A stretch of 47,338 nt of DNA from Archangiaceae bacterium (lineage in GTDB: Bacteria > Myxococcota > Myxococcia > Myxococcales > Myxococcaceae), in NCBI GenBank assembly GCA_043750125.1, contig JAYVCD010000066.1, forward strand, positions 1-47,338, given 5' to 3'. This document shows, one piece after another, positions 1-6,265 of the stretch (position 1 is its first letter; each line of letters opens with the position of its first letter). Below the pieces are notes generated by a model that ran no database searches, was not told where the DNA came from, and was given only the letters and a program-made list of their open reading frames with translations. Both the position numbers and the translations under genes were made by a program.

Positions 1-663
1 CGTCACCGCAATGGCTGGAGCGGGGAGCGGTATTTGCGACGGTCCGCCATCAACCGAGGGGTCCAGGCAGCTCACCCCTCCGTCGGCCATCAACCCGCAG
101 CAGGACCAATCTCCGCAGGCGATGGCGACCGCGCCTTGCATTGCCCCCACGACACGCACGGGACCTGTGAAGACGGGTTTCTCGAAACAGACAACTTCGC
201 CGGTTTCAATCAATGCGCACGAACCCAGGCCACCGACCGCAATGGTCCGCGCCCGATCGATTTGTGCCTCGTGACGCTTTGAACACGAGCCCCCGCTCGC
301 CTCGCAGACCACGCGTCCCCCTTCCATCAGGGCGCAGGCGTAGGAAGGTTCGGAACACCACGGGGTCCACCCTCCGACCGAGATCGCGATCGCTCCCAAC
401 TCGACGACCGTAAATCGAATGGGGGTCCCGTCCGCTCCCGTGGCCTCGCACTCGACGCGGCCCGCCTGCGAGCGGGTGCAATGGACTCCGTCGCCCACGC
501 TCACCTCGATCACCCGATCTACCGGCGGCCCCGCGTCGAACTGGCCTGCGTCAAGGCGAGGCTCCTCCCACCCCGTGTCAGGGGACAAACCAGGTGCGAT
601 CTGAGTTCGACCGCAGGCACAGAGTAGAGCGACGACGAGCAGGAGGGGCAGTGAGGGGTTCAT
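1..663 (-). CDS. Cys-containing lipoprotein with RCC1/BLIP-II-like beta-propeller repeats (partial; runs off the left edge)
   Basis: Not in the ORF track; translated by hand from ATG at 663: MNPSLPLLLVVALLCACGR (lipobox). Repeats follow, such as VSVGDGVHCTRSQAGRVEC, YACALMEGGRVVC, IAVGGLGSCALIETGEVVC and IACGDWSCCGLMADGGVSC. The frame is open to position 1. Confidence 0.75.
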   Translation of the reverse strand, partial: MNPSLPLLLVVALLCACGRTQIAPGLSPDTGWEEPRLDAGQFDAGPPVDRVIEVSVGDGVHCTRSQAGRVECEATGADGTPIRFTVVELGAIAISVGGWTPWCSEPSYACALMEGGRVVCEASGGSCSKRHEAQIDRARTIAVGGLGSCALIETGEVVCFEKPVFTGPVRVVGAMQGAVAIACGDWSCCGLMADGGVSCLDPSVDGGPSQIPLPAPAIAVT

Positions 664-705: not shown

Positions 706-754
706 AGTGTTCATCACATTCAGTCGTCTACGGACTCAATCTTCCGGAGCACCC

Positions 755-1702
755 ATGGAGCTCTCTCACCTTCGCTACTTCTTTCATGTCGCCACTGCCC
801 GAAGCTTTGTGCGCGGGGCTCGCGCCGCGTTCGTCACCCCACCCGCGTTGAGCAAGGCCGTTCGTGGGCTCGAAAAAGAGCTCGGCGTCGCATTGCTCGA
901 GCGCAGCACGCGACACGTGCGTCTCACCCGCGCGGGTGAAGTGGTGCTGGAGCGGTGTCGCCGCATTCTGGAAGAAGCTGAATCGCTGCGACGCGATGCG
1001 GCCACGGCGTCCCGCGAGATCAAGGGCGAGCTGCGCATCGCCGCGATGGAAGTCTTCTCAATCGATTTGTTGCCCATCGCCCTCACCCACCTGGTGAAGG
1101 CTCATCCGGGAGTCGTTCCGTTGGTGTACGAGATGGGCCCCGAAGACCTGCGGCTCGCGCTCAGCCGTGGCCTCCTCGATGTGGGGTTCAGCGTCGGAGG
1201 ACAGTCCACCGCCGACGTGTCGCGCGACGTGCTGGGTCTGAGTGTCGCCTGCATCGTCAGCGGGCCCGATCACCCGCTGCATCGCCACAAGCGGGTCACG
1301 CCCGCCACACTCGCCACCCAGAGTTGGGTCGTGCCGCGATTTTTTGGAAGGCCCCCCTTCCCTTCCCTGGACCAATTTCCCGACGAGAAGTATCCCCGCG
1401 CGATTGGAGCCACCATCGAGCTGCTCCAGGCGGGAATCAAACTGGCGGGGGGTGGCGCCTACCTGGGTTGCTTCCCCGAGATTTCGATTCGGCGAGAGTT
1501 GAATGACGGGAGTCTGCTGCGGATCAAGAGAGCCCCGCGGGTGCCGCCCTTCGAGCTGGCCGTCTTTACCCGACGCAACACCACGCCTTCCCCTGCGGTC
1601 GAAGCTCTGATCACGCTGATGCGCAAAGTTCTCGCCGAACGCCCCAAAAGTGTGCGCCCGCTCGCTTCAACGGCAACAGGGCCCGCACGACGACCTCGGT
1701 GA
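755..1702 (+). CDS. LysR-family transcriptional regulator
   Basis: N-terminal HTH MELSHLRYFFHVA...SFVRGA...VTPPALSKAVRGLEKELGVALLERSTRHVRLTRAG followed by a substrate-binding domain. Start taken at ATG 755. Confidence 0.95.
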   Translation: MELSHLRYFFHVATARSFVRGARAAFVTPPALSKAVRGLEKELGVALLERSTRHVRLTRAGEVVLERCRRILEEAESLRRDAATASREIKGELRIAAMEVFSIDLLPIALTHLVKAHPGVVPLVYEMGPEDLRLALSRGLLDVGFSVGGQSTADVSRDVLGLSVACIVSGPDHPLHRHKRVTPATLATQSWVVPRFFGRPPFPSLDQFPDEKYPRAIGATIELLQAGIKLAGGGAYLGCFPEISIRRELNDGSLLRIKRAPRVPPFELAVFTRRNTTPSPAVEALITLMRKVLAERPKSVRPLASTATGPARRPR

Positions 1703-1902
1703 GCGCGTCTAGAACCCGGGCGACCGACAGTCCGTTCGGCCGGCGGTACCGCGTCGGAAGCAAGGCGCGCTTCGCCGCATTCGCGCGCGCGTTCTTCCCC
1801 GCGTGGTTGTTCGACTTCGTCCTGCGCCGAGAGTTTCGGCTCGGCTGATATCCGCGCGGCGGGTGTAACCCCCGGGCCCCGGGGCTCGTAGGATGTCTTC
1901 AG

Positions 1903-3156
1903 ATGCGAGCCGCCCTCTTCCTTGCGCTCGTCGCGCTGTCACTTCCAGCTGCGGCGCAATGCACAACTTGAGTGAACCCTGCGCTCCCGTCGGGAGCGGG
2001 AGCAGACGGGGTCACGCTTCAAGGCCTGTCGCAGTCCTGGTCGGCGTCGGCTCAACTCGCCGTCGGGTGGATCCCCTTCCCAGGTCGGCTCGCCAACGGG
2101 CAGACCATCGAGGACCCTGCCCGGCCCCGGTTGGATTTGGGCCTGGCCACCGTCTCGGCCGGTTTCGGGCGCGGCCTGGGACCGGGTCTCGAGCTGCAGT
2201 TGCCGATGGGGATCATTGGCCGCAGCGACCTCGTCAATGGCGCGCAGCGTGACGTAGGTCTGGGCGATCTCGAGCTTCGCGGGCGCTTTACCGCGGCGCC
2301 CAACCCCATCCGGCTCACTGCCAGCGCCGGTCTCGCGTTGCCCACCGGGGCCTATGCCGCAAAGAGCGGCGCGCTCGCGCTCCAGGAAAACGCCCGCTAC
2401 CTGACGCTCGGCAGAGGAACGACCTGGTTCCTGGGCGACCTTGATGCGCGCGTCACGCTGCCCCAGCGGTTCGGCGCTTTCGCCTCGAGCACCGTGCGCC
2501 TGGCGCTGGCCGACGCCCATGACGGGTTTCGCTGGGGCCCCGAGGCGCGGGTGACGGCCGGAGCCACGCTCGGCCCGCTGGTCGAACGAATCTCGTTCTC
2601 ACTCGGCCTCGAAACCCAGTGGCGCGCTCAATCTTCCGAGATCGATCCGTTCACCAATGCGCGGGTGTCTTCCGCCAACACCGGTGGAACCTGGCTCACC
2701 CTCACCCCGGCCGGGCAAGTGCGGGTGATCGATGGGCTTGGAATCTTCGCGGCCCTTCGCGTCCCGCTGGCTCAGTGGGCCAGCGGGCTCCAGTTCATCC
2801 CCGGTCCGGGGGTGTTCGTGGGCATCGGAGGCAGTCTCGAGGTGATCCCTGCGACCCGCCCCGACACGGGCGCTTCCAGGGGCAAGGTGACCCTGGTGGA
2901 CTATTGGGCCACGTGGTGCGCTCCCTGTGTGAAACTCAAGCCGCTGATCGCTGCGGCCCGGCAGCGGCATCCCGAGCTCGAGGTAAAGGAAATCGATGCC
3001 AGCGCATGGACCGCAGAAGAGCTGGCGAAGGAAGTGCCCGGCGCCGCGGGGCTTCCGGTGCTCTTGATGTACGCGCCCGACGGCAGCCTCGCGGCTCAGT
3101 GGGTGGGCGAAGATGCGTTCGAGTTCGAAAACAAGTTGAAGGAGCTGCTTCCATGA
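1903..3156 (+). CDS. Putative selenoprotein: signal peptide + CxxU motif + outer-membrane beta-barrel (MetA-pathway/transporter-like) + C-terminal thioredoxin domain
   Basis: AGGA at 1890-1893, ATG 1903, MRAALFLALVALSLPAAA-QCTT-TGA(1969-1971)-VNPALP in frame with track ORF 1972..3156. Amphipathic strands (GLGDLELRGRF, LALPTGAY, RWGPEARVTAG) and C-terminal LVDYWATWCAPCVKLKP. SECIS-like hairpin at 1982-1998. Confidence 0.8.
1982..1998 (+). other. Putative bacterial SECIS element (gene 1)
   Basis: CGCTCCC-GTC-GGGAGCG: perfect 7-bp stem with a GU-containing loop, starting 10 nt after the in-frame UGA; loop G at +18. Confidence 0.7.
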
Positions 3157-3743
3157 CGACGAAACCCGGCTGGACTCACGCGCTGCTGGCTGCCTGTTCG
3201 ATGGCGATGTTTGCGTGCGGCGGGACGATGAAAGGGGCCGACGCGGGCGGGGGCGGCGGTGCCGGCGGTGGCTTCGCGCTGACCGACGGCGGGGACGTCG
3301 TCGCGATGTACCCCAGCTGGCAGCTGGCTGACATTCAGCCCCAAAGTCCGCGCTTCAACCAGGTCTACGGCCTGTCTGCGTTCCAGACCCGGCCAGTGGT
3401 CGTCGTGCTTCTGGAAGGGTTTTGAACCGTTTGTCGATCCCAGGCTGGGGTCGCCGAGTCGCTCTGGGCAGATCTGAAGGCCGAAGGCCGCAGCGTGCAG
3501 TTCGTCGTGCTGTCTGACGCGAACGCCAGCGACTTCGTGCCCGTGTTGACGATGCCGCTCTTCCGAGACCCAAGCCCCAACCGTGCCGCGTGGCTGGAGC
3601 TCGACGCCACCGCGTACAAACACGACACGTTTGTGTTTGATGCGCAGGGACGACGGGTGCTGACTCTCAAGTTGAACGGTTCGCTCAACCCGGCGACCTG
3701 GCGCAGTGACGTAGGGGCGGCGGTCCGCGCTCTTCCTCCTTGA
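3153..3743 (+). CDS. Putative selenoprotein lipoprotein with UxxC thioredoxin/peroxiredoxin-like fold (SelP N-domain-like)
   Basis: AAGGAG at 3139-3144 and ATGA overlap with the upstream stop. Lipoprotein-type signal MTTKPGWTHALLAACSMAMFAC. VVVVLLEGF-TGA(3423-3425)-TVCRSQ continues in frame into track ORF 3495..3743 (DTFVFDAQGR). 196 aa with readthrough. Confidence 0.85.
3435..3453 (+). other. Putative bacterial SECIS element (gene 2)
   Basis: CGATCCCA-GGC-TGGGGTCG: 8-bp stem with one U-G pair, starting 9 nt after the in-frame UGA; first loop G at +18. Confidence 0.7.
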
Positions 3744-3766
3744 ATCAGCCCGGCGTGCGGGTCGAC

Positions 3767-4525
3767 TCAGAAGGGCAAAAGAGTCGCCACCACGGCTCCG
3801 ATCGGAAGGACTTCAGCCCCCGCCGCCGCCGACGCCCGGAGCACACGCTCGAGATCGCGCGGGGTCACTCCAAATCCGGTCGGGCGATCGCTCACGTCGT
3901 GGGAATACAAGATGAGCCACCCTCCCCCCTGGGCGACCTGGTCGATCAAGCGCAGCGCCTGGTCGACGTGACCGCCTGACGAGTACAGCTTGTTGCCCTT
4001 GAGGAGGTTCAGATCCACCCGGTCGCGGTGCAGTCCGGGGAAGATCGACCGCATGCTCGCAAACCGTTCGCCGAGCCTGGCCTTCAACGACGGCCGCAGC
4101 CGCCCGTACGGATACGCGAAGTGTGACAACGGTCTTCCCGGTTGCAGCCCCGCGAAGCTCGCCTGATTTCGATCGAGATCCTCGTCGATCGTCTGCATAC
4201 GCGAGGTCATCAGGTCGAGGTGTGAATGGCTGTGACAGCCCAGCTCATGCCCGCCTGCACTCACTTTGAGCAGGTCCTCGCGGGTGAACGCGTCCTTCGC
4301 AGACGTCTGTTCTGTCATCAGCCCCATCGCCACGTAATAGGTGGCGTGCACCCCTTGAGCCTCGACCACCTCGGCTCCCAGTCGCGCCGCCGAACGGGGG
4401 AAGTCATCGAAGCTGAACGAAATGCAACGGCGGCCCGCAGCCAGTCGTGCCATTCGCGCACCCACATGCGGCGTCACCCATCGGGTGCCGTGGTACAGCG
4501 CGCTGTCGACGAGACGCTTGATCAC
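3767..4525 (-). CDS. Polysaccharide deacetylase (CE4/NodB domain)
   Basis: ISFSFDDFP, GHELGCHSHSH, FAYPYG and LILYSHDV motifs. Start taken at GTG 4525, just after the upstream stop. Confidence 0.88.
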   Translation of the reverse strand: MIKRLVDSALYHGTRWVTPHVGARMARLAAGRRCISFSFDDFPRSAARLGAEVVEAQGVHATYYVAMGLMTEQTSAKDAFTREDLLKVSAGGHELGCHSHSHLDLMTSRMQTIDEDLDRNQASFAGLQPGRPLSHFAYPYGRLRPSLKARLGERFASMRSIFPGLHRDRVDLNLLKGNKLYSSGGHVDQALRLIDQVAQGGGWLILYSHDVSDRPTGFGVTPRDLERVLRASAAAGAEVLPIGAVVATLLPF

Positions 4526-4536
4526 GGCTTTTGTCT

Positions 4537-5556
4537 CTATGGCTGTTCTGTCTTGTGCCGCTCTGGGTAGCGACGCACCCGGAACGGCGCCATCCACAAG
4601 ATCTTCCCCAGTCCGCCCGAAGCGATGCACAGGTACCGCCGCGCCGTCTCGGCGCTGAAGGGGCTGGTCGCAATCGCAACCATTCCACCCACCGACACCT
4701 GTGCCGCACCGACCAGCATCCAGAGCAGCGCTTCGATCTTGTTCGAATGTTCAGAAGATACGCACAGCGAAGTCCGTACCTGCCCCGCACTGAAGCGGCG
4801 CTTGAGCAGGTACCGCATCGTCAGGCGTTCTTCGCTGAAGTATTCCCGCACCCGCGCTTCCGGACACCAGTTGAGCTGGCGCCCCTCGGCAAGCAGCTTT
4901 CGAATCAGGGCTGAGTCTTCGCCGCCTGCGAGGCCCAGCGACAAATCGAAGGGCTCTGCCCCCGAGAAGCAGCTGCGGCGAAAGAGCGAATTTCCTGACC
5001 CCAGCGAAGCAATGCGCCGGGCCGGTACGGGGCCCGACGGCTCGGTGAAGAGCCGGGTCATTTCCTTTTCATGCAGCTGGGCGTTGTCCCGGGTCGGACC
5101 ATCGAAGTGGCCGAGCACCGCACCGAAGACCGCGTCAGACCCACTTTCCCTCTGGGCAGCAACGAGCGCGGCCAACCACTCAGGCTCGGCATCTTCATCG
5201 TCATCGAGGAACGCGATCAGCTGGCCGTGCGCGCTGGCCACCCCTCGATTGCGGGCCGCCGAAACTCCCGGAATCGGTTCACTTTCGTAGCGGAAGCGAA
5301 GCCGACCGTGGGCCGACACCTCTTTGACCGTGTCGCTCGCCGTCCGATCGGGACAGTTGTCGACCACCACCACTTCGAAGTCGTCGGGTGAAATTCCGAC
5401 CTGGGCCTGACAGCTCTCGAGCGCACGCCGAAGGGATTTCGGCCGACGAAAGGTGGGAATGATGACCGAAATTTTCGGCAACGCCACCAGCGCGCTCGTA
5501 CTTTCCTCGCGGGTCTTGTCGCCAGCGGCCTTTTCCACTCCCTGCTGGGAAGCCAT
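4537..5556 (-). CDS. GT2 glycosyltransferase, ExoM-like
   Basis: ISVIIPTFRRP, VVVVDNC, GVSAARNRG, IAFLDDDE, GGEDSAL. Start uncertain (5556 or 5571). Confidence 0.9.
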   Translation of the reverse strand: MASQQGVEKAAGDKTREESTSALVALPKISVIIPTFRRPKSLRRALESCQAQVGISPDDFEVVVVDNCPDRTASDTVKEVSAHGRLRFRYESEPIPGVSAARNRGVASAHGQLIAFLDDDEDAEPEWLAALVAAQRESGSDAVFGAVLGHFDGPTRDNAQLHEKEMTRLFTEPSGPVPARRIASLGSGNSLFRRSCFSGAEPFDLSLGLAGGEDSALIRKLLAEGRQLNWCPEARVREYFSEERLTMRYLLKRRFSAGQVRTSLCVSSEHSNKIEALLWMLVGAAQVSVGGMVAIATSPFSAETARRYLCIASGGLGKILWMAPFRVRRYPERHKTEQP

Positions 5557-5779
5557 CAGGGCCACCCGCAATCAGGCGAGGGCCCTTCGGGGAATGTCGA
5601 ATCGCGCCGAGACACGCGCCCAAACAGACCACGTTTTCGGTTGGAAGGCCGGCAGCAACCAGGGCCACCCGGCGGTGAGTAAAAATGTCCCACGCTCAAA
5701 GCCCAGCCGACCCCCGGTTGTTATAGCCGTTCGTGTTACCACTCTGAGCCGATTGGGCAGGAACCAAACGGGGGCGCAC

Positions 5780-6265
5780 ATGAAGAAGAAGCCGCAGGAA
5801 GATCCGCTGCACGCATTGTGGAGTGGTGATCCGCTCGCGATTCAGAAATTGCTGCACTCGAAGGTGAACCTCAATCAGACGGATGCCCAGGGGCGCACGT
5901 TGCTGATGGAAGCGGTCCTCGAGAAGCGAACTGATCTGGTCAAGCTGTTGCTCGAACACGGAGGCGATCCAAAGCTGTCCGATCGCGAAGGGGTCACTGC
6001 ACTCCACTTCGCAGCTCAAGCCCAGTTGCCTGAGATCGTTCAGCTGCTGCTCGACAAGGGAGCGCCCGTCGACGCCAAAGACCACCTCGGAAACACGCCC
6101 CTCTTCAAGGCGCTGTCGACCTTCCGTGGCGAGGCCGATGGAGATGCCATCTGGGCCCTGCTGCTGGCCGGCGCGGACAAGACTCTCAAGAACACCCACC
6201 AGATCTCATCCGAAGATCTCAGTCACCGGGTGTCGAACTATGATCTCGAGCGCTTCTTTCGCTGA
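5780..6265 (+). CDS. Ankyrin repeat protein
   Basis: DAQGRTLLMEAV, DREGVTALHFAA and DHLGNTPLFKAL ankyrin repeats; ATG 5780. Confidence 0.9.
   Translation: MKKKPQEDPLHALWSGDPLAIQKLLHSKVNLNQTDAQGRTLLMEAVLEKRTDLVKLLLEHGGDPKLSDREGVTALHFAAQAQLPEIVQLLLDKGAPVDAKDHLGNTPLFKALSTFRGEADGDAIWALLLAGADKTLKNTHQISSEDLSHRVSNYDLERFFR

What the first reader, a model, noticed from the sequence alone, without database searches (positions are those of the whole stretch)
1903..3743. Hidden two-gene selenoprotein operon: outer-membrane CxxU-barrel-thioredoxin plus UxxC lipoprotein
Seen: two coupled genes (ATGA overlap at 3153-3156) each have one in-frame TGA exactly at a Cys position of a CxxC-type motif (CTT-U at 1969; U-TVC at 3423). 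Each has a good RBS and export signal upstream, a long coding continuation downstream, and a hairpin right after the UGA. Together they carry three redox centres: CxxU, WCAPC and UxxC. Established: bacterial Sec is encoded by UGA plus an adjacent downstream SECIS and mostly occupies CxxU/UxxC motifs. Inference: an envelope redox relay, or a redox-coupled metal/metalloid transport system, that standard annotation would miss. I do not recognise this combination as a described system.
Basis: partly seen in the sequence, partly recalled or inferred. Interest (0 to 1): 0.92.

Follow-up and report, generated by a model that had tools for sequence, protein, structure and literature searches.

The report
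Paired envelope selenoproteins: barrel-thioredoxin plus lipoprotein
Two neighbouring genes of a myxobacterium each hide a selenocysteine codon and encode an outer-membrane channel fused to a thioredoxin and a tethered redox lipoprotein, a conserved pair that gene callers truncate or split and that I did not find described.

Summary
Gene 1 (1903-3156) has an in-frame TGA at 1969-1971, giving a mature N-terminus Q-C-T-T-U. Gene 2 (3153-3743) has one at 3423-3425 (G-F-U-T-V-C-R).

Both are genuine Sec codons:
- tRNA-Sec, selB and a TGA-containing selD are in the genome.
- In 27 related Myxococcota loci the two genes are always adjacent. 21 carry TGA in both genes, 6 carry Cys in both, and none is mixed.
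- A 6-bp hairpin 10 nt after the UGA is kept in all Sec forms, with compensatory changes in gene 2, and is lost in the Cys forms. The genome's own selD has the same hairpin geometry.

Gene 1 models as a 12-stranded COG4313/FapF-like outer-membrane barrel (Z 26.2) followed by a thioredoxin domain (WCAPC). Gene 2 is a lipoprotein with a redoxin fold, distantly related to NCBIfam TUGYCR and the selenoprotein P N-domain.

Wider relatives of the barrel carry QCxxC, QUxxU or His-His at the same N-terminal tip, and some have His-rich linkers.

Function is inferred: a three-centre selenol/thiol relay or soft-metal handling device at the outer membrane. Neither of two inventories of prokaryotic selenoproteins (2022, 2026) lists the barrel family.

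The parts
1890..1893 (+). Shine-Dalgarno-like AGGA, 9 nt before the start of gene 1
   Evidence: Sequence read.
1903..3156 (+). Gene 1 coding sequence: 417 residues with the internal UGA read as Sec, stop TGA at 3154-3156
   Evidence: Translation. Orthologues with 1 in-frame TGA in G014 and G005.
1903..1956 (+). Signal peptide (M1-A18). Cleavage is inferred after A-A-A, which leaves Q19 as the mature N-terminus.
   Evidence: By inspection. Q is invariant directly before the first Cys in all 27 rows of A5. No signal-peptide predictor was run.
1960..1971 (+). C-T-T-U redox/ligand motif. The Sec codon TGA is at 1969-1971.
   Evidence: TGA in 21 of 27 loci and Cys in 6 of 27 at this aligned position.
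1982..1998 (+). SECIS-like hairpin of gene 1: a 6-bp stem (1982-1987 with 1993-1998) and a 5-nt loop
   Evidence: 5-6 of 6 pairs form in 22 of 22 Sec forms and 2-4 of 6 in the 6 Cys forms. The selD hairpin has the same geometry.
2038..2847 (+). 12-stranded outer-membrane beta-barrel domain (about residues 46-315)
   Evidence: AF2 models (mean pLDDT 85). VIA-align against 4rl8_C gives Z 26.2, rmsd 2.4 A over 256 residues. Foldseek finds FapF and 4rl8.
2884..3147 (+). C-terminal thioredoxin domain, with W-C-A-P-C at 2914-2928
   Evidence: Pfam PF00085, 36.2 bits against a cut-off of 23.5. PDB thioredoxins down to E 1e-15.
3141..3144 (+). Shine-Dalgarno-like GGAG before gene 2
   Evidence: Sequence read.
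3153..3743 (+). Gene 2 coding sequence: 196 residues with the UGA read as Sec, stop TGA at 3741-3743. Its start overlaps the stop of gene 1 (ATGA).
   Evidence: Translation. Orthologues with 1 TGA in G003, G014 and G005.
3153..3218 (+). Lipoprotein signal peptide ending in the lipobox Cys22 (TGC 3216-3218). A Gly-rich tether follows, to about 3299.
   Evidence: By inspection. The window has M-F-A-C-G. Orthologues have L-V-A-C-G (G003 and G014), L-G-C-A (G005), V-A-A-C-G (L051) and L-V-G-C-G (L072). No predictor was run.
3300..3740 (+). Redoxin (thioredoxin-fold) domain of gene 2
   Evidence: NF053656, 34.5 bits against a cut-off of 100. Pfam AhpC-TSA, Redoxin and SelP_N all below their cut-offs.
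3423..3434 (+). U-T-V-C motif: Sec codon TGA 3423-3425 and the second Cys of the motif (Cys94) at 3432-3434
   Evidence: TGA in 21 of 27 loci and Cys in 6 of 27.
3436..3452 (+). SECIS-like hairpin of gene 2: a 6-bp stem (3436-3441 with 3447-3452) and the loop A-G-G-C-U
   Evidence: 100% of cells pair in 22 Sec forms, and 2 pairs change on both sides. 0 of 500 shuffles reach the percentage of paired cells or the covariation score. Cys forms form 1-3 of 6 pairs.

Best explanation
The two genes encode genuine selenoproteins that work together at the outer membrane.

Gene 1 is exported. Its mature N-terminus is Q-C-T-T-Sec. A 12-stranded COG4313/FapF-type outer-membrane barrel follows, then a periplasmic thioredoxin domain (W-C-A-P-C).

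Gene 2 is a lipoprotein on a Gly-rich tether. It carries a thioredoxin-fold domain with Sec-x-x-Cys that is distantly related to the TUGYCR redoxins and the N-domain of selenoprotein P.

Both UGAs are decoded by SelB and tRNA-Sec, with a short hairpin that starts 10 nt after the UGA.

Inferred mechanism: the three centres (CxxU, CxPC, UxxC) form a selenol/thiol-disulfide exchange chain. In COG4313 channels the N-terminal segment lies in the barrel lumen. Here that arm carries the CxxU pair, by analogy with the Cys-Sec tail of mammalian thioredoxin reductase. It would reduce or seize a thiophilic substrate in or below the channel (a disulfide, a peroxide or a soft metal/metalloid). The fused thioredoxin and the UxxC lipoprotein would then return it to the reduced state.

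Shown: Sec coding, the domain architecture and the conserved pairing. Inferred: the relay, its direction and the substrate.
For: Sec decoding:
- tRNA-Sec scores 65.1 bits and ARAGORN calls SeC(tca).
- selB scores 281 bits. selD scores 339 bits and has its own in-frame TGA.
- selA is present in 5 of 5 relatives searched.

Sec/Cys pattern:
- 21 of 27 loci have TGA in both genes, 6 of 27 have Cys in both, and 0 are mixed. Gene 2 is adjacent in 27 of 27.
- 7 of 12 database homologues that I fetched start exactly at the residue after the TGA, which is what a gene caller produces at an unrecognised Sec codon.

Hairpins:
- Gene 2: 100% of cells pair, and 2 pairs change on both sides. 0 of 500 shuffles reach the percentage of paired cells or the covariation score.
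- Gene 1: 96.2% of cells pair.
- Cys forms form only 1-4 of 6 pairs.
- The genome's own selD has the same geometry: a stem from +10 and the loop C-G-G-G-A-C.

Fold:
- AF2 mean pLDDT 85.
- 4rl8 at Z 26.2 and FapF at Z 24.6.
- Thioredoxin Pfam hit above its cut-off.
- In COG4313 channels the N-terminal segment folds into the lumen (PMC4493636, passages read).

Self-contained module: no flanking gene family is shared by more than 5 of 28 loci.

Centres change together in the sampled loci: W-C-x-P-C in 21 of 21 Sec forms and W-C-x-A-C in 5 of 5 Cys forms.
Against: - No experiment, substrate or contact was tested. The complex prediction could not be run.
- The first 19 residues of the mature protein, which include the CxxU motif, have pLDDT below 50. 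Its position in the lumen therefore rests on analogy and on an alignment range (model 8..294 against chain 1..268).
- The 27-of-27 concordance reflects few events. On the gene 1 tree the Cys label needs only 2 changes.
- The P/A link in the thioredoxin motif is specific to these clades. In the wider family, Cys forms also have W-C-A-P-C, W-C-P-P-C and W-C-V-N-C.
- Gene 1's hairpin shows no covariation, and its sequence also encodes conserved residues.
- selA was not found in this 89.4%-complete genome.
- His-His tips and His-rich linkers in relatives point to metal binding rather than to electron transfer.
Confidence: 0.55

Rival explanations
1. Soft-metal or metalloid handling instead of electron relay. 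The N-terminal CxxU and the UxxC of the lipoprotein would be ligands that take a thiophilic ion (Cu(I), Hg, Cd, or selenite- or arsenite-derived species) through the barrel and hand it on. The thioredoxin domain would only keep the ligands reduced.
For: - In the wider barrel family the same mature N-terminal position carries His-His in 36 of the 150 clusters classed (146 new ids plus 4 seen earlier), QCxxC in 21, and TGA-x-x-TGA in 3 loci read through.
- About 19 clusters have His-rich stretches between the barrel and the thioredoxin domain.
- One UxxU locus lies beside an ArsR-HTH/methyltransferase fusion.
- Sec-bearing metal-binding families are listed in the 2026 inventory.
- Gene 2 has a nearly invariant His (K-H-D) about 66 residues after the UxxC.
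Against: - The window's own proteins have no His-rich segment.
- No metal gene is conserved beside the pair.
- Neighbours of the UxxU forms are inconsistent.
- W-C-x-P-C thioredoxin domains are typical of reductases (recalled knowledge, not tested here).
- The His-His relatives are distant (E about 1e-19) and lack both the thioredoxin domain and gene 2.
Confidence: 0.3
2. Envelope peroxidase. The UxxC lipoprotein (selenoprotein P N-domain/peroxiredoxin-like) or the CxxU tip would reduce hydroperoxides, for example of outer-membrane lipids that reach the lumen of a hydrophobic-substrate channel. The thioredoxin domain would be the reductant.
For: - AhpC-TSA and Redoxin matches in 22 and 26 of 27 gene 2 homologues, and SelP_N in 17 of 27 at E up to 0.1.
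- COG4313 channels are implicated in the passage of hydrophobic molecules (PMC4493636).
- Sec is frequent in peroxidases (inventory tables).
Against: - All these Pfam matches are below their cut-offs for the window's protein.
- The motif is CxxC-type (G-F-U-x-x-C-R), not the PxxxTxxC/U of peroxiredoxins.
- The barrel interior, judged from alternating invariant residues (D-x-E-x-R-x-R and further Arg), looks charged, not hydrophobic. This is my reading of the alignment, not a measurement.
Confidence: 0.1
3. The TGAs are real stops, or the genes are decaying. Gene 1 would then be a leaderless thioredoxin-fusion ORF starting at GTG 1972, and gene 2 would be two fragments.
For: - This is how public gene callers read them: the 394-aa P0003 and the many homologues that start M/V-N-P-A-L-P.
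- selA was not found in this assembly.
Against: - An outer-membrane barrel needs the signal peptide, and that peptide lies upstream of the TGA in the same frame in 27 of 27 loci.
- Cys replaces the TGA in both genes in 6 loci.
- The hairpins are kept only in the TGA forms.
- tRNA-Sec, selB and selD are present.
- Both sides of each TGA are conserved at 50-67% identity.
Confidence: 0.02
4. The barrel is a FapF-like polypeptide pore. It would secrete or surface-display a partner, for example by threading the Gly-rich tether of gene 2, with the redox centres acting on the passenger.
For: - FapF is the second-best structural match, tied within about 2 Z units with 4rl8 (Z 24.6; Foldseek E 1.6e-11).
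- Gly-rich linkers of 30-57 residues are present in all four gene 2 orthologues read.
Against: - No Fap-like neighbours or passenger gene are conserved.
- Gly-rich tethers could be ordinary lipoprotein linkers (my assumption, not tested).
- Structural similarity of 12-stranded barrels does not show function.
Confidence: 0.05

Closest known systems
COG4313 / Pfam PF13557 (Phenol_MetA_deg) outer-membrane channels, e.g. Pput2725 (PDB 4rl8)
   Same: - 12-stranded barrel: Z 26.2, rmsd 2.4 A over 256 of 268 residues.
- A segment precedes strand 1. In Pput2725 that segment occludes the lumen (PMC4493636).
- Distant His-His-type relatives of gene 1's barrel reach the Pfam cut-off: P0129 at 23.3 bits and P0159 at 22.8 bits, against a cut-off of 22.
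   Different: - The window's protein gives no PF13557 match at E up to 1.
- It carries a CxxU at the tip of the N-terminal segment and a fused thioredoxin domain.
- It always sits beside a UxxC lipoprotein.
- None of these features is described for COG4313 channels in the passages I read.
FapF, the amyloid-subunit transporter of Pseudomonas (PDB 5o65/5o67)
   Same: [quoted passage not shown] Z 24.6 and Foldseek E 1.6e-11.
   Different: - Only 11-13% identity.
- No fap operon.
- No coiled-coil N-domain is seen in the model.
- Redox motifs and a thioredoxin domain are present here.
NCBIfam NF053656, 'TUGYCR motif thioredoxin fold (seleno)protein'
   Same: - 27 of 27 gene 2 homologues match it, best E 4.4e-13.
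- The Sec-x-x-Cys-Arg pattern is shared.
- Paralogue-like genes with S-S-U-G-Y-C-R and a lipoprotein-like leader exist in relatives (G014:C129, seen).
   Different: - The window's protein scores 33-34.5 bits against a cut-off of 100.
- The motif is G-F-U-T-V-C-R-S-Q, not T-U-G-Y-C-R.
- This branch is defined by its pairing with the barrel gene.
Selenoprotein P N-terminal domain (Pfam PF04592) of vertebrates
   Same: - Thioredoxin-fold domain with a UxxC motif.
- 17 of 27 gene 2 homologues match at E up to 0.1, best 2.1e-6.
- The L073 homologue passes the cut-off (25.9 bits against 23.2).
   Different: - The window's protein scores only 12.5-13 bits.
- It is a bacterial lipoprotein and has no Sec-rich C-terminal domain.
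[quoted passage not shown]
   Same: Sec in an outer-membrane barrel protein. The first of the two has a CxxU motif (table read).
   Different: - These are different barrel families.
- Neither model matched gene 1 in the NCBIfam scan at E up to 1.
- The table lists no fused thioredoxin and no paired UxxC lipoprotein for them. I saw only the table rows.
C-terminal Gly-Cys-Sec-Gly arm of mammalian thioredoxin reductase (recalled; not from any call)
   Same: A Cys/Sec pair sits on a flexible terminal arm that would shuttle reducing equivalents from a buried dithiol centre to a substrate. This is a comparison of how it may work only.
   Different: - The arm here is N-terminal, not C-terminal.
- The spacing is CxxU, not CU.
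- There is no flavin domain.
- The setting is the outer membrane.
- No homology is claimed.

Membership tests
Bacterial selenoprotein (UGA decoded as Sec) | In-frame UGA with a conserved coding sequence on both sides | tested here: met
   Orthologues at 50-67% identity keep 1 TGA at the same aligned place in both genes.
Bacterial selenoprotein (UGA decoded as Sec) | Cys-containing homologues aligned at the UGA | tested here: met
   6 of 27 loci have Cys at both positions. P0030 is a full-length Cys form.
Bacterial selenoprotein (UGA decoded as Sec) | SECIS stem-loop shortly downstream of the UGA | tested here: met
   The in-genome control, selD, has the same geometry. No dedicated bacterial SECIS predictor was available, and Rfam gave no relevant match.
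Bacterial selenoprotein (UGA decoded as Sec) | selC (tRNA-Sec), selB, selD and selA in the genome | tested here: inconclusive
   tRNA-Sec, selB and selD were found. selA was not found with TIGR00474 or PF03841. The assembly is 89.4% complete in 460 contigs. selA is present in 5 of 5 relatives searched.
Bacterial selenoprotein (UGA decoded as Sec) | Selenium shown in the protein | not testable with these tools
   Needs 75Se labelling or mass spectrometry.
COG4313 / PF13557 outer-membrane channel | Match to the Pfam model above its cut-off | tested here: not met
   No PF13557 match for P0001 at E up to 1. Only distant relatives reach it: P0129 at 23.3 bits and P0159 at 22.8 bits, against a cut-off of 22.
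COG4313 / PF13557 outer-membrane channel | 12-stranded beta-barrel of this shape | tested here: met
   Predicted model only. 4rl8_C at Z 26.2, rmsd 2.4 A, 256 of 268 residues aligned. Foldseek TM (by target length) 0.78-0.80.
COG4313 / PF13557 outer-membrane channel | N-terminal segment folded into the barrel lumen | tested here: inconclusive
   The alignment spans model residues 8..294 against chain 1..268, but model residues 1-19 have pLDDT below 50.
Thioredoxin (PF00085) | Pfam match above its cut-off, and a CxxC active site | tested here: met
   36.2 bits against a cut-off of 23.5, residues 328-403. W-C-A-P-C is present, and W, C and C are invariant in 40 sequences.
NCBIfam NF053656 TUGYCR redoxin | Score at or above the curated cut-off of 100 bits | tested here: not met
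   33.2 and 34.5 bits.
NCBIfam NF053656 TUGYCR redoxin | T-U-G-Y-C-R motif | tested here: not met
   The window has F-U-T-V-C-R. Only U-x-x-C-R is shared.
Selenoprotein P N-terminal domain (PF04592) | Pfam match above the cut-off of 23.2 bits | tested here: not met
   12.5-13 bits for the window's protein. Met only by the L073 homologue, 25.9 bits.
Bacterial lipoprotein | Signal peptide ending in a lipobox Cys | tested here: met
   By inspection only. The window has M-F-A-C-G, which is not canonical. Orthologues have L-V-A-C-G, V-A-A-C-G and L-V-G-C-G. No lipoprotein predictor was run.

The most novel reading that the evidence does not exclude
An outer-membrane channel whose lumen-inserted N-terminal arm carries a selenenylsulfide pair (CxxU here, UxxU or UU in relatives). 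The arm would work as a moving redox or metal-binding tip. It would carry reducing power or a thiophilic ion across the outer membrane. A fused thioredoxin and a bacterial relative of the selenoprotein P N-domain would serve it. The Cys/Cys paralogue pairs found in the same genomes would be selenium-independent back-ups.
Probability: 0.25. Interest if true: 0.9.

Novelty: new variant of a known kind. Interest (0 to 1): 0.74.

Why it matters
- It would add a selenoprotein family, the barrel-thioredoxin, that is absent from the two inventories I read (87 families in 2022, 119 in 2026). It would also add a new branch of a redoxin family.
- Both genes are wrongly truncated or split in public annotation. 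All 40 database homologues carry only the thioredoxin domain match, and those with a source name are called thioredoxin-type.
- It puts redox-active Sec centres at the outer membrane of aerobic soil and sediment myxobacteria, where reductive chemistry is hardly described.
- The both-or-neither Sec/Cys state of two separate genes gives a natural handle on why Sec is chosen over Cys.
- The series His-His / CxxC / CxxU / UxxU at one structural position of a channel family suggests a tunable reactive tip. That idea can be tested directly with peptides and mutants.

Tried and rejected
- Rfam scan of 1800-3900 at E up to 10: only chance matches and no SECIS family.
- Promoter/terminator scan of 1600-4000: 0 promoter-like sites, and 1 terminator-like site on the minus strand. 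That is not above the shuffles.
- Conserved neighbours: clustering the ORFs of 28 loci found nothing beyond the two genes in more than 5 loci. The upstream LysR gene is not conserved.
- Profile searches of PDB sequences found only thioredoxins for gene 1 and weak TlpA/thioredoxin matches for gene 2. No barrel was found by sequence.
- Complex prediction of gene 1 with gene 2: no result, so contact between the two proteins is untested.
- ESM Atlas look-up: no result.
- Earlier findings of this scan were not open.
- Sequencing runs: no RNA holder is listed, so nothing can be said about expression.
- Position of the CxxU arm: a second AF2 run with full-length N-termini still gave pLDDT below 50 for residues 1-19.
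- Neighbours of the UxxU relatives gave no consistent functional clue, and no gene 2 homologue lies in those loci at tblastn E 1e-3.
- Paper searches. 'TUGYCR' gave 0 papers and 'Phenol_MetA_deg' with thioredoxin gave 0. Selenocysteine with Myxococcota gave 4 and selenoprotein with Myxococcus gave 11, none on this subject judging by title and abstract start. Passages of the 2022 preprint on eight selenoprotein families did not concern this system. Supplementary files of papers were closed, so the lists behind the inventories could hold these genes unseen.
Full report
**1. What is in the sequence**

The stretch 1903-3743 holds two same-strand reading frames, and each is interrupted by a single TGA.

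Gene 1:
- It starts at ATG 1903, preceded by AGGA.
- It encodes a hydrophobic leader ending A-A-A, then Q-C-T-T, then TGA (1969-1971), then V-N-P-A-L-P.
- It runs on for 394 more codons to TGA 3154-3156.
- W-C-A-P-C lies at 2914-2928.

Gene 2:
- It starts at ATG 3153, inside ATGA and preceded by GGAG.
- It has a leader ending M-F-A-C-G, then a Gly-rich stretch, then L-L-E-G-F, then TGA (3423-3425), then T-V-C-R-S-Q.
- It ends at TGA 3741-3743.

Under table 11 the list of ORFs shows the truncated or split products a gene caller would make: 1972-3156, and 3495-3743 for the second half of gene 2.

**2. Are the TGAs selenocysteine codons? Yes, with high confidence.**

(a) Machinery.
- The window's genome (89.4% complete, 460 contigs) has a tRNA-Sec above Rfam's cut-off (65.1 bits). 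ARAGORN calls it SeC with anticodon tca.
- It has selB (281 bits) and selD (339 bits), and selD itself contains one in-frame TGA.
- selA was not found with TIGR00474 or PF03841.
- selA is present above cut-off in 5 of 5 related genomes searched, three of them from the same genus. All five also have tRNA-Sec. An assembly gap is therefore the likely reason for the miss, but I cannot show it.

(b) Orthologues.
- Among 60 related genomes, gene 2 has clear orthologues in three: G003 (67% identity), G014 (64%) and G005 (50%). Each has one TGA inside.
- Gene 1 is full length with one TGA in G014 (59%) and G005 (52%). In G003 it is cut by the contig end.
- The residues around the TGAs are Q-C-T-T-U-V-N-P-A-L-P and G-[FY]-U-x-x-C-R-S-Q-A-G.

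(c) Sec/Cys pairs.
- A pattern scan of one genome per species returned 27 loci. All are labelled Myxococcota MAGs except L073, which is labelled an Enterobacteriaceae MAG but has 67% G+C.
- At the aligned gene 1 position, 21 of 27 have TGA and 6 of 27 have Cys (L054, L055, L056, L060, L068, L073).
- A gene 2 homologue lies next to gene 1 in 27 of 27. The 21 with TGA in gene 1 all have TGA in gene 2, and the 6 with Cys all have Cys.
- Of 12 database homologues that I fetched, 7 start exactly at the residue after the TGA (M/V-N-P-[AS]-L-P-G-G), and one (P0030) is a full-length Cys form.

(d) SECIS.
- Both genes have a hairpin of the same geometry in all 22 Sec forms: a 6-bp stem starting 10 nt after the UGA, a 5-nt loop, and G as the second loop base.
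- Gene 2: 100% of cells pair. Three pairs vary, two of them with changes on both sides (G-C/A-U/G-U and U-A/U-G/G-U). 0 of 500 shuffles reach the observed percentage of paired cells or the covariation score (the two counts of pairs and pair types were reached by 25 of 500), and sliding the partner columns destroys pairing. The varying bases sit in a codon whose amino acid itself varies (I/T/V/A/S), so the constraint is on the RNA.
- Gene 1: 96.2% pair, but nothing covaries. That hairpin is compatible with the structure, not proof of it.
- The six Cys forms form only 2-4 (gene 1) and 1-3 (gene 2) of the 6 pairs.
- As an in-genome control, selD has a 7-bp stem from +10 and the loop C-G-G-G-A-C.

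(e) Reads.
- Contigs assembled independently from 4 runs of one study cover both TGAs, and no differing letter is listed there. Two of the runs may be the source sample.
- A sequencing error is in any case excluded by the 21 other assemblies.

**3. What the proteins are**

*Gene 1.*
- Pfam sees only the C-terminal thioredoxin domain (36.2 bits).
- Two AlphaFold2 models (mean pLDDT 85.1 and 85.5) give a beta-barrel over about residues 46-315 and a thioredoxin fold over 329-415.
- The best structural matches are the COG4313 channel Pput2725 (4rl8: Z 26.2, rmsd 2.4 A, 256 of 268 residues) and FapF (Z 24.6). Autotransporter barrels come next at Z about 19.
- The paper on Pput2725 (abstract and passages read) describes a 12-stranded barrel whose first ~14 residues fold into the lumen from the periplasmic side.
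- In my model the alignment to 4rl8 starts at model residue 8. Residues 1-19, which include the CxxU motif, have pLDDT below 50. The arm's position is therefore an analogy, not a result.
- By sequence the window's protein does not match PF13557.

A profile of the N-terminus plus barrel found 684 representative clusters at E up to 0.001, 213 at 1e-10 and 54 at 1e-30. Distant members of this set do reach PF13557's cut-off.

*Gene 2.*
- It has a lipoprotein-type leader. The lipobox is canonical in orthologues (L-V-A-C-G) and less so in the window (M-F-A-C-G).
- A Gly-rich tether of 30-57 residues follows, then a redoxin domain.
- All 27 homologues match NCBIfam NF053656 'TUGYCR motif thioredoxin fold (seleno)protein' (best E 4.4e-13). 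The window's protein scores 34.5 bits, far below the cut-off of 100.
- Pfam Redoxin matches 26 of 27, AhpC-TSA 22 of 27 and SelP_N 17 of 27 at E up to 0.1. The L073 homologue passes SelP_N's cut-off.
- True S-S-U-G-Y-C-R genes exist elsewhere in G014 and G005. The barrel-linked gene is therefore a separate branch of that superfamily.

**4. The pair as a unit**

- ORFs from 28 loci were clustered. Only the two genes are shared by all, and no flanking family occurs in more than 5 loci.
- In the window the neighbours are a LysR regulator upstream and a convergent polysaccharide deacetylase downstream.
- Gene spacing varies, so the ATGA coupling is local to this genome.
- The thioredoxin motif is W-C-x-P-C in 21 of 21 Sec forms and W-C-x-A-C in 5 of 5 Cys forms (A5; L049 was left out as a near copy of L048, and L073 has no thioredoxin domain).

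Two cautions apply.
- On the gene 1 tree the five Cys forms are one clade (support 100/99), sister to the Myxococcaceae Sec clade, and L073 is a long branch. The Cys label needs only 2 changes, so the perfect concordance stands for about two events, not 27.
- In the wider family, Cys forms also carry W-C-A-P-C, W-C-P-P-C, W-C-K-V-C and W-C-V-N-C.

Two MAGs hold both a Sec pair and a Cys pair (L048 with L056, and L049 with L068).

**5. The wider family gives the best functional hint**

I classed the listed clusters with simple patterns. This covered 146 new ids plus 4 seen earlier.
- 21 have a mature N-terminus Q-C-x-x-C: 12 with a C-terminal W-[CS]-x-x-C domain and 9 without.
- 10 start M-N-P-x-L-P, that is, cut right after a TGA.
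- 36 have A-H-H after the leader and are barrel-only proteins of 330-350 residues.
- Most of the rest are truncated at the N-terminus.
- About 19 have His-rich stretches (5 or more His in 30 residues) between the barrel and the thioredoxin domain.

Three such loci in other Myxococcota families, read through, show Q-U-x-x-U, with two in-frame TGAs. A fourth shows U-U. No gene 2 homologue lies in those loci, and their neighbours are inconsistent.

One structural position, the tip of the segment before strand 1, therefore carries His-His, CxxC, CxxU, UxxU or UU across the family.

**6. How it most likely works (inference)**

- The N- and C-termini of a 12-stranded barrel both face the periplasm. 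The tethered lipoprotein is there too.
- The three centres can therefore meet. I read them as an exchange chain that ends in the CxxU arm at or in the channel.
- The thioredoxin motif is of the reductase type. This rests on recalled knowledge of TlpA/ResA/CcmG-type proteins.
- Whether the arm passes electrons (to a disulfide or a peroxide) or holds a soft metal or metalloid cannot be decided here. The His-His and His-rich relatives favour a ligand role. The fused thioredoxin and the joint switch of the centres favour redox exchange. A redox-coupled capture would satisfy both.

**7. Known or new?**

- I read the tables of the 2022 inventory (87 families, PMC9312934) and the 2026 inventory (119 families, PMC13188914, section 7 parts 1-2 of 3).
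- They list Prx-like, redoxin and thiol:disulfide UxxC proteins, a TonB-dependent receptor with a CxxU motif, and an MtrB/PioB-type barrel.
- They list no COG4313-type barrel-thioredoxin fusion, and the 2026 text does not contain 'TUGYCR' or 'NF053656'.
- NCBIfam release 20 has no model that matches gene 1 outside its thioredoxin domain.
- Paper searches found nothing on the subject.

**8. Verdict**

- The finding is a new selenoprotein family (gene 1) paired with a new branch of a known redoxin superfamily (gene 2).
- The function is open but testable.

Noticed in passing
L083 (G109:C4), L086 (G127:C150), L087 (G140:C29), L085 (G114:C105): Relatives of gene 1 in other Myxococcota families read Q-U-x-x-U-x-N-P-N-L-P-V-G-G, with two in-frame TGAs three codons apart. 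One reads U-U (adjacent TGAs). They also have His-rich linkers between the barrel and the thioredoxin domain. They look like double-Sec proteins and have no gene 2 nearby.
   Followed up: partly
Proteins P0099-P0187 (e.g. P0103, P0108, P0129, P0159): There is a large set of barrel-only relatives of 330-350 residues. Their leader is followed by His-His (A-H-H-G/S/T ... R-[VL]-G) at the position of the CxxC/CxxU tip. Two reach Pfam PF13557's cut-off. This may be a metal-binding N-terminus.
   Followed up: partly
G000:C240:7306-7764 (same genome, another contig): A degraded fragment of a gene 1 paralogue, 86-92% identical in DNA. It has an internal deletion of about residues 119-207 and has no N-terminus or thioredoxin domain. 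Contigs of runs X3 and X4 show the same 270-nt skip (2257 to 2528), with 5 and 16 other letters on its two sides.
   Followed up: partly
G000:C278:3012-3932: The genome's selD is itself a selenoprotein gene (G-G-U-G-A-K). Its SECIS hairpin has the same geometry as those of the two genes studied.
   Followed up: yes
G000, whole genome: selA was not found (TIGR00474, PF03841), although tRNA-Sec, selB and selD are present. A partial selD-like match sits at the end of contig C370. This is probably due to assembly gaps.
   Followed up: partly
L073 (record labelled uncultured Enterobacteriaceae MAG): The contig has 67% G+C. It carries a Cys-form barrel without a thioredoxin domain, and the redoxin gene lies upstream of it: a 359-aa ORF whose C-terminal part passes Pfam SelP_N. 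The taxonomic label looks wrong for this contig.
   Followed up: partly
G014:C129:2689-3063 and G005:C152:13280-13729 (L025, L024): Separate lipoprotein-like redoxin genes with one in-frame TGA. The one read through (L025, G014:C129) has the motif S-S-U-G-Y-C-R, which fits the NCBIfam TUGYCR type by motif. I did not score them against the model.
   Followed up: no
L048+L056 and L049+L068 (two MAGs): The same genome carries one Sec/Sec pair and one Cys/Cys pair of the two genes. This could be a selenium-dependent set and a selenium-independent set.
   Followed up: no
window 707-1702 (+) and 5453-6265 (+): A LysR-family regulator lies 200 nt upstream of gene 1 on the same strand, but it is not conserved beside the pair elsewhere. 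An ankyrin-repeat protein gene lies further downstream.
   Followed up: partly
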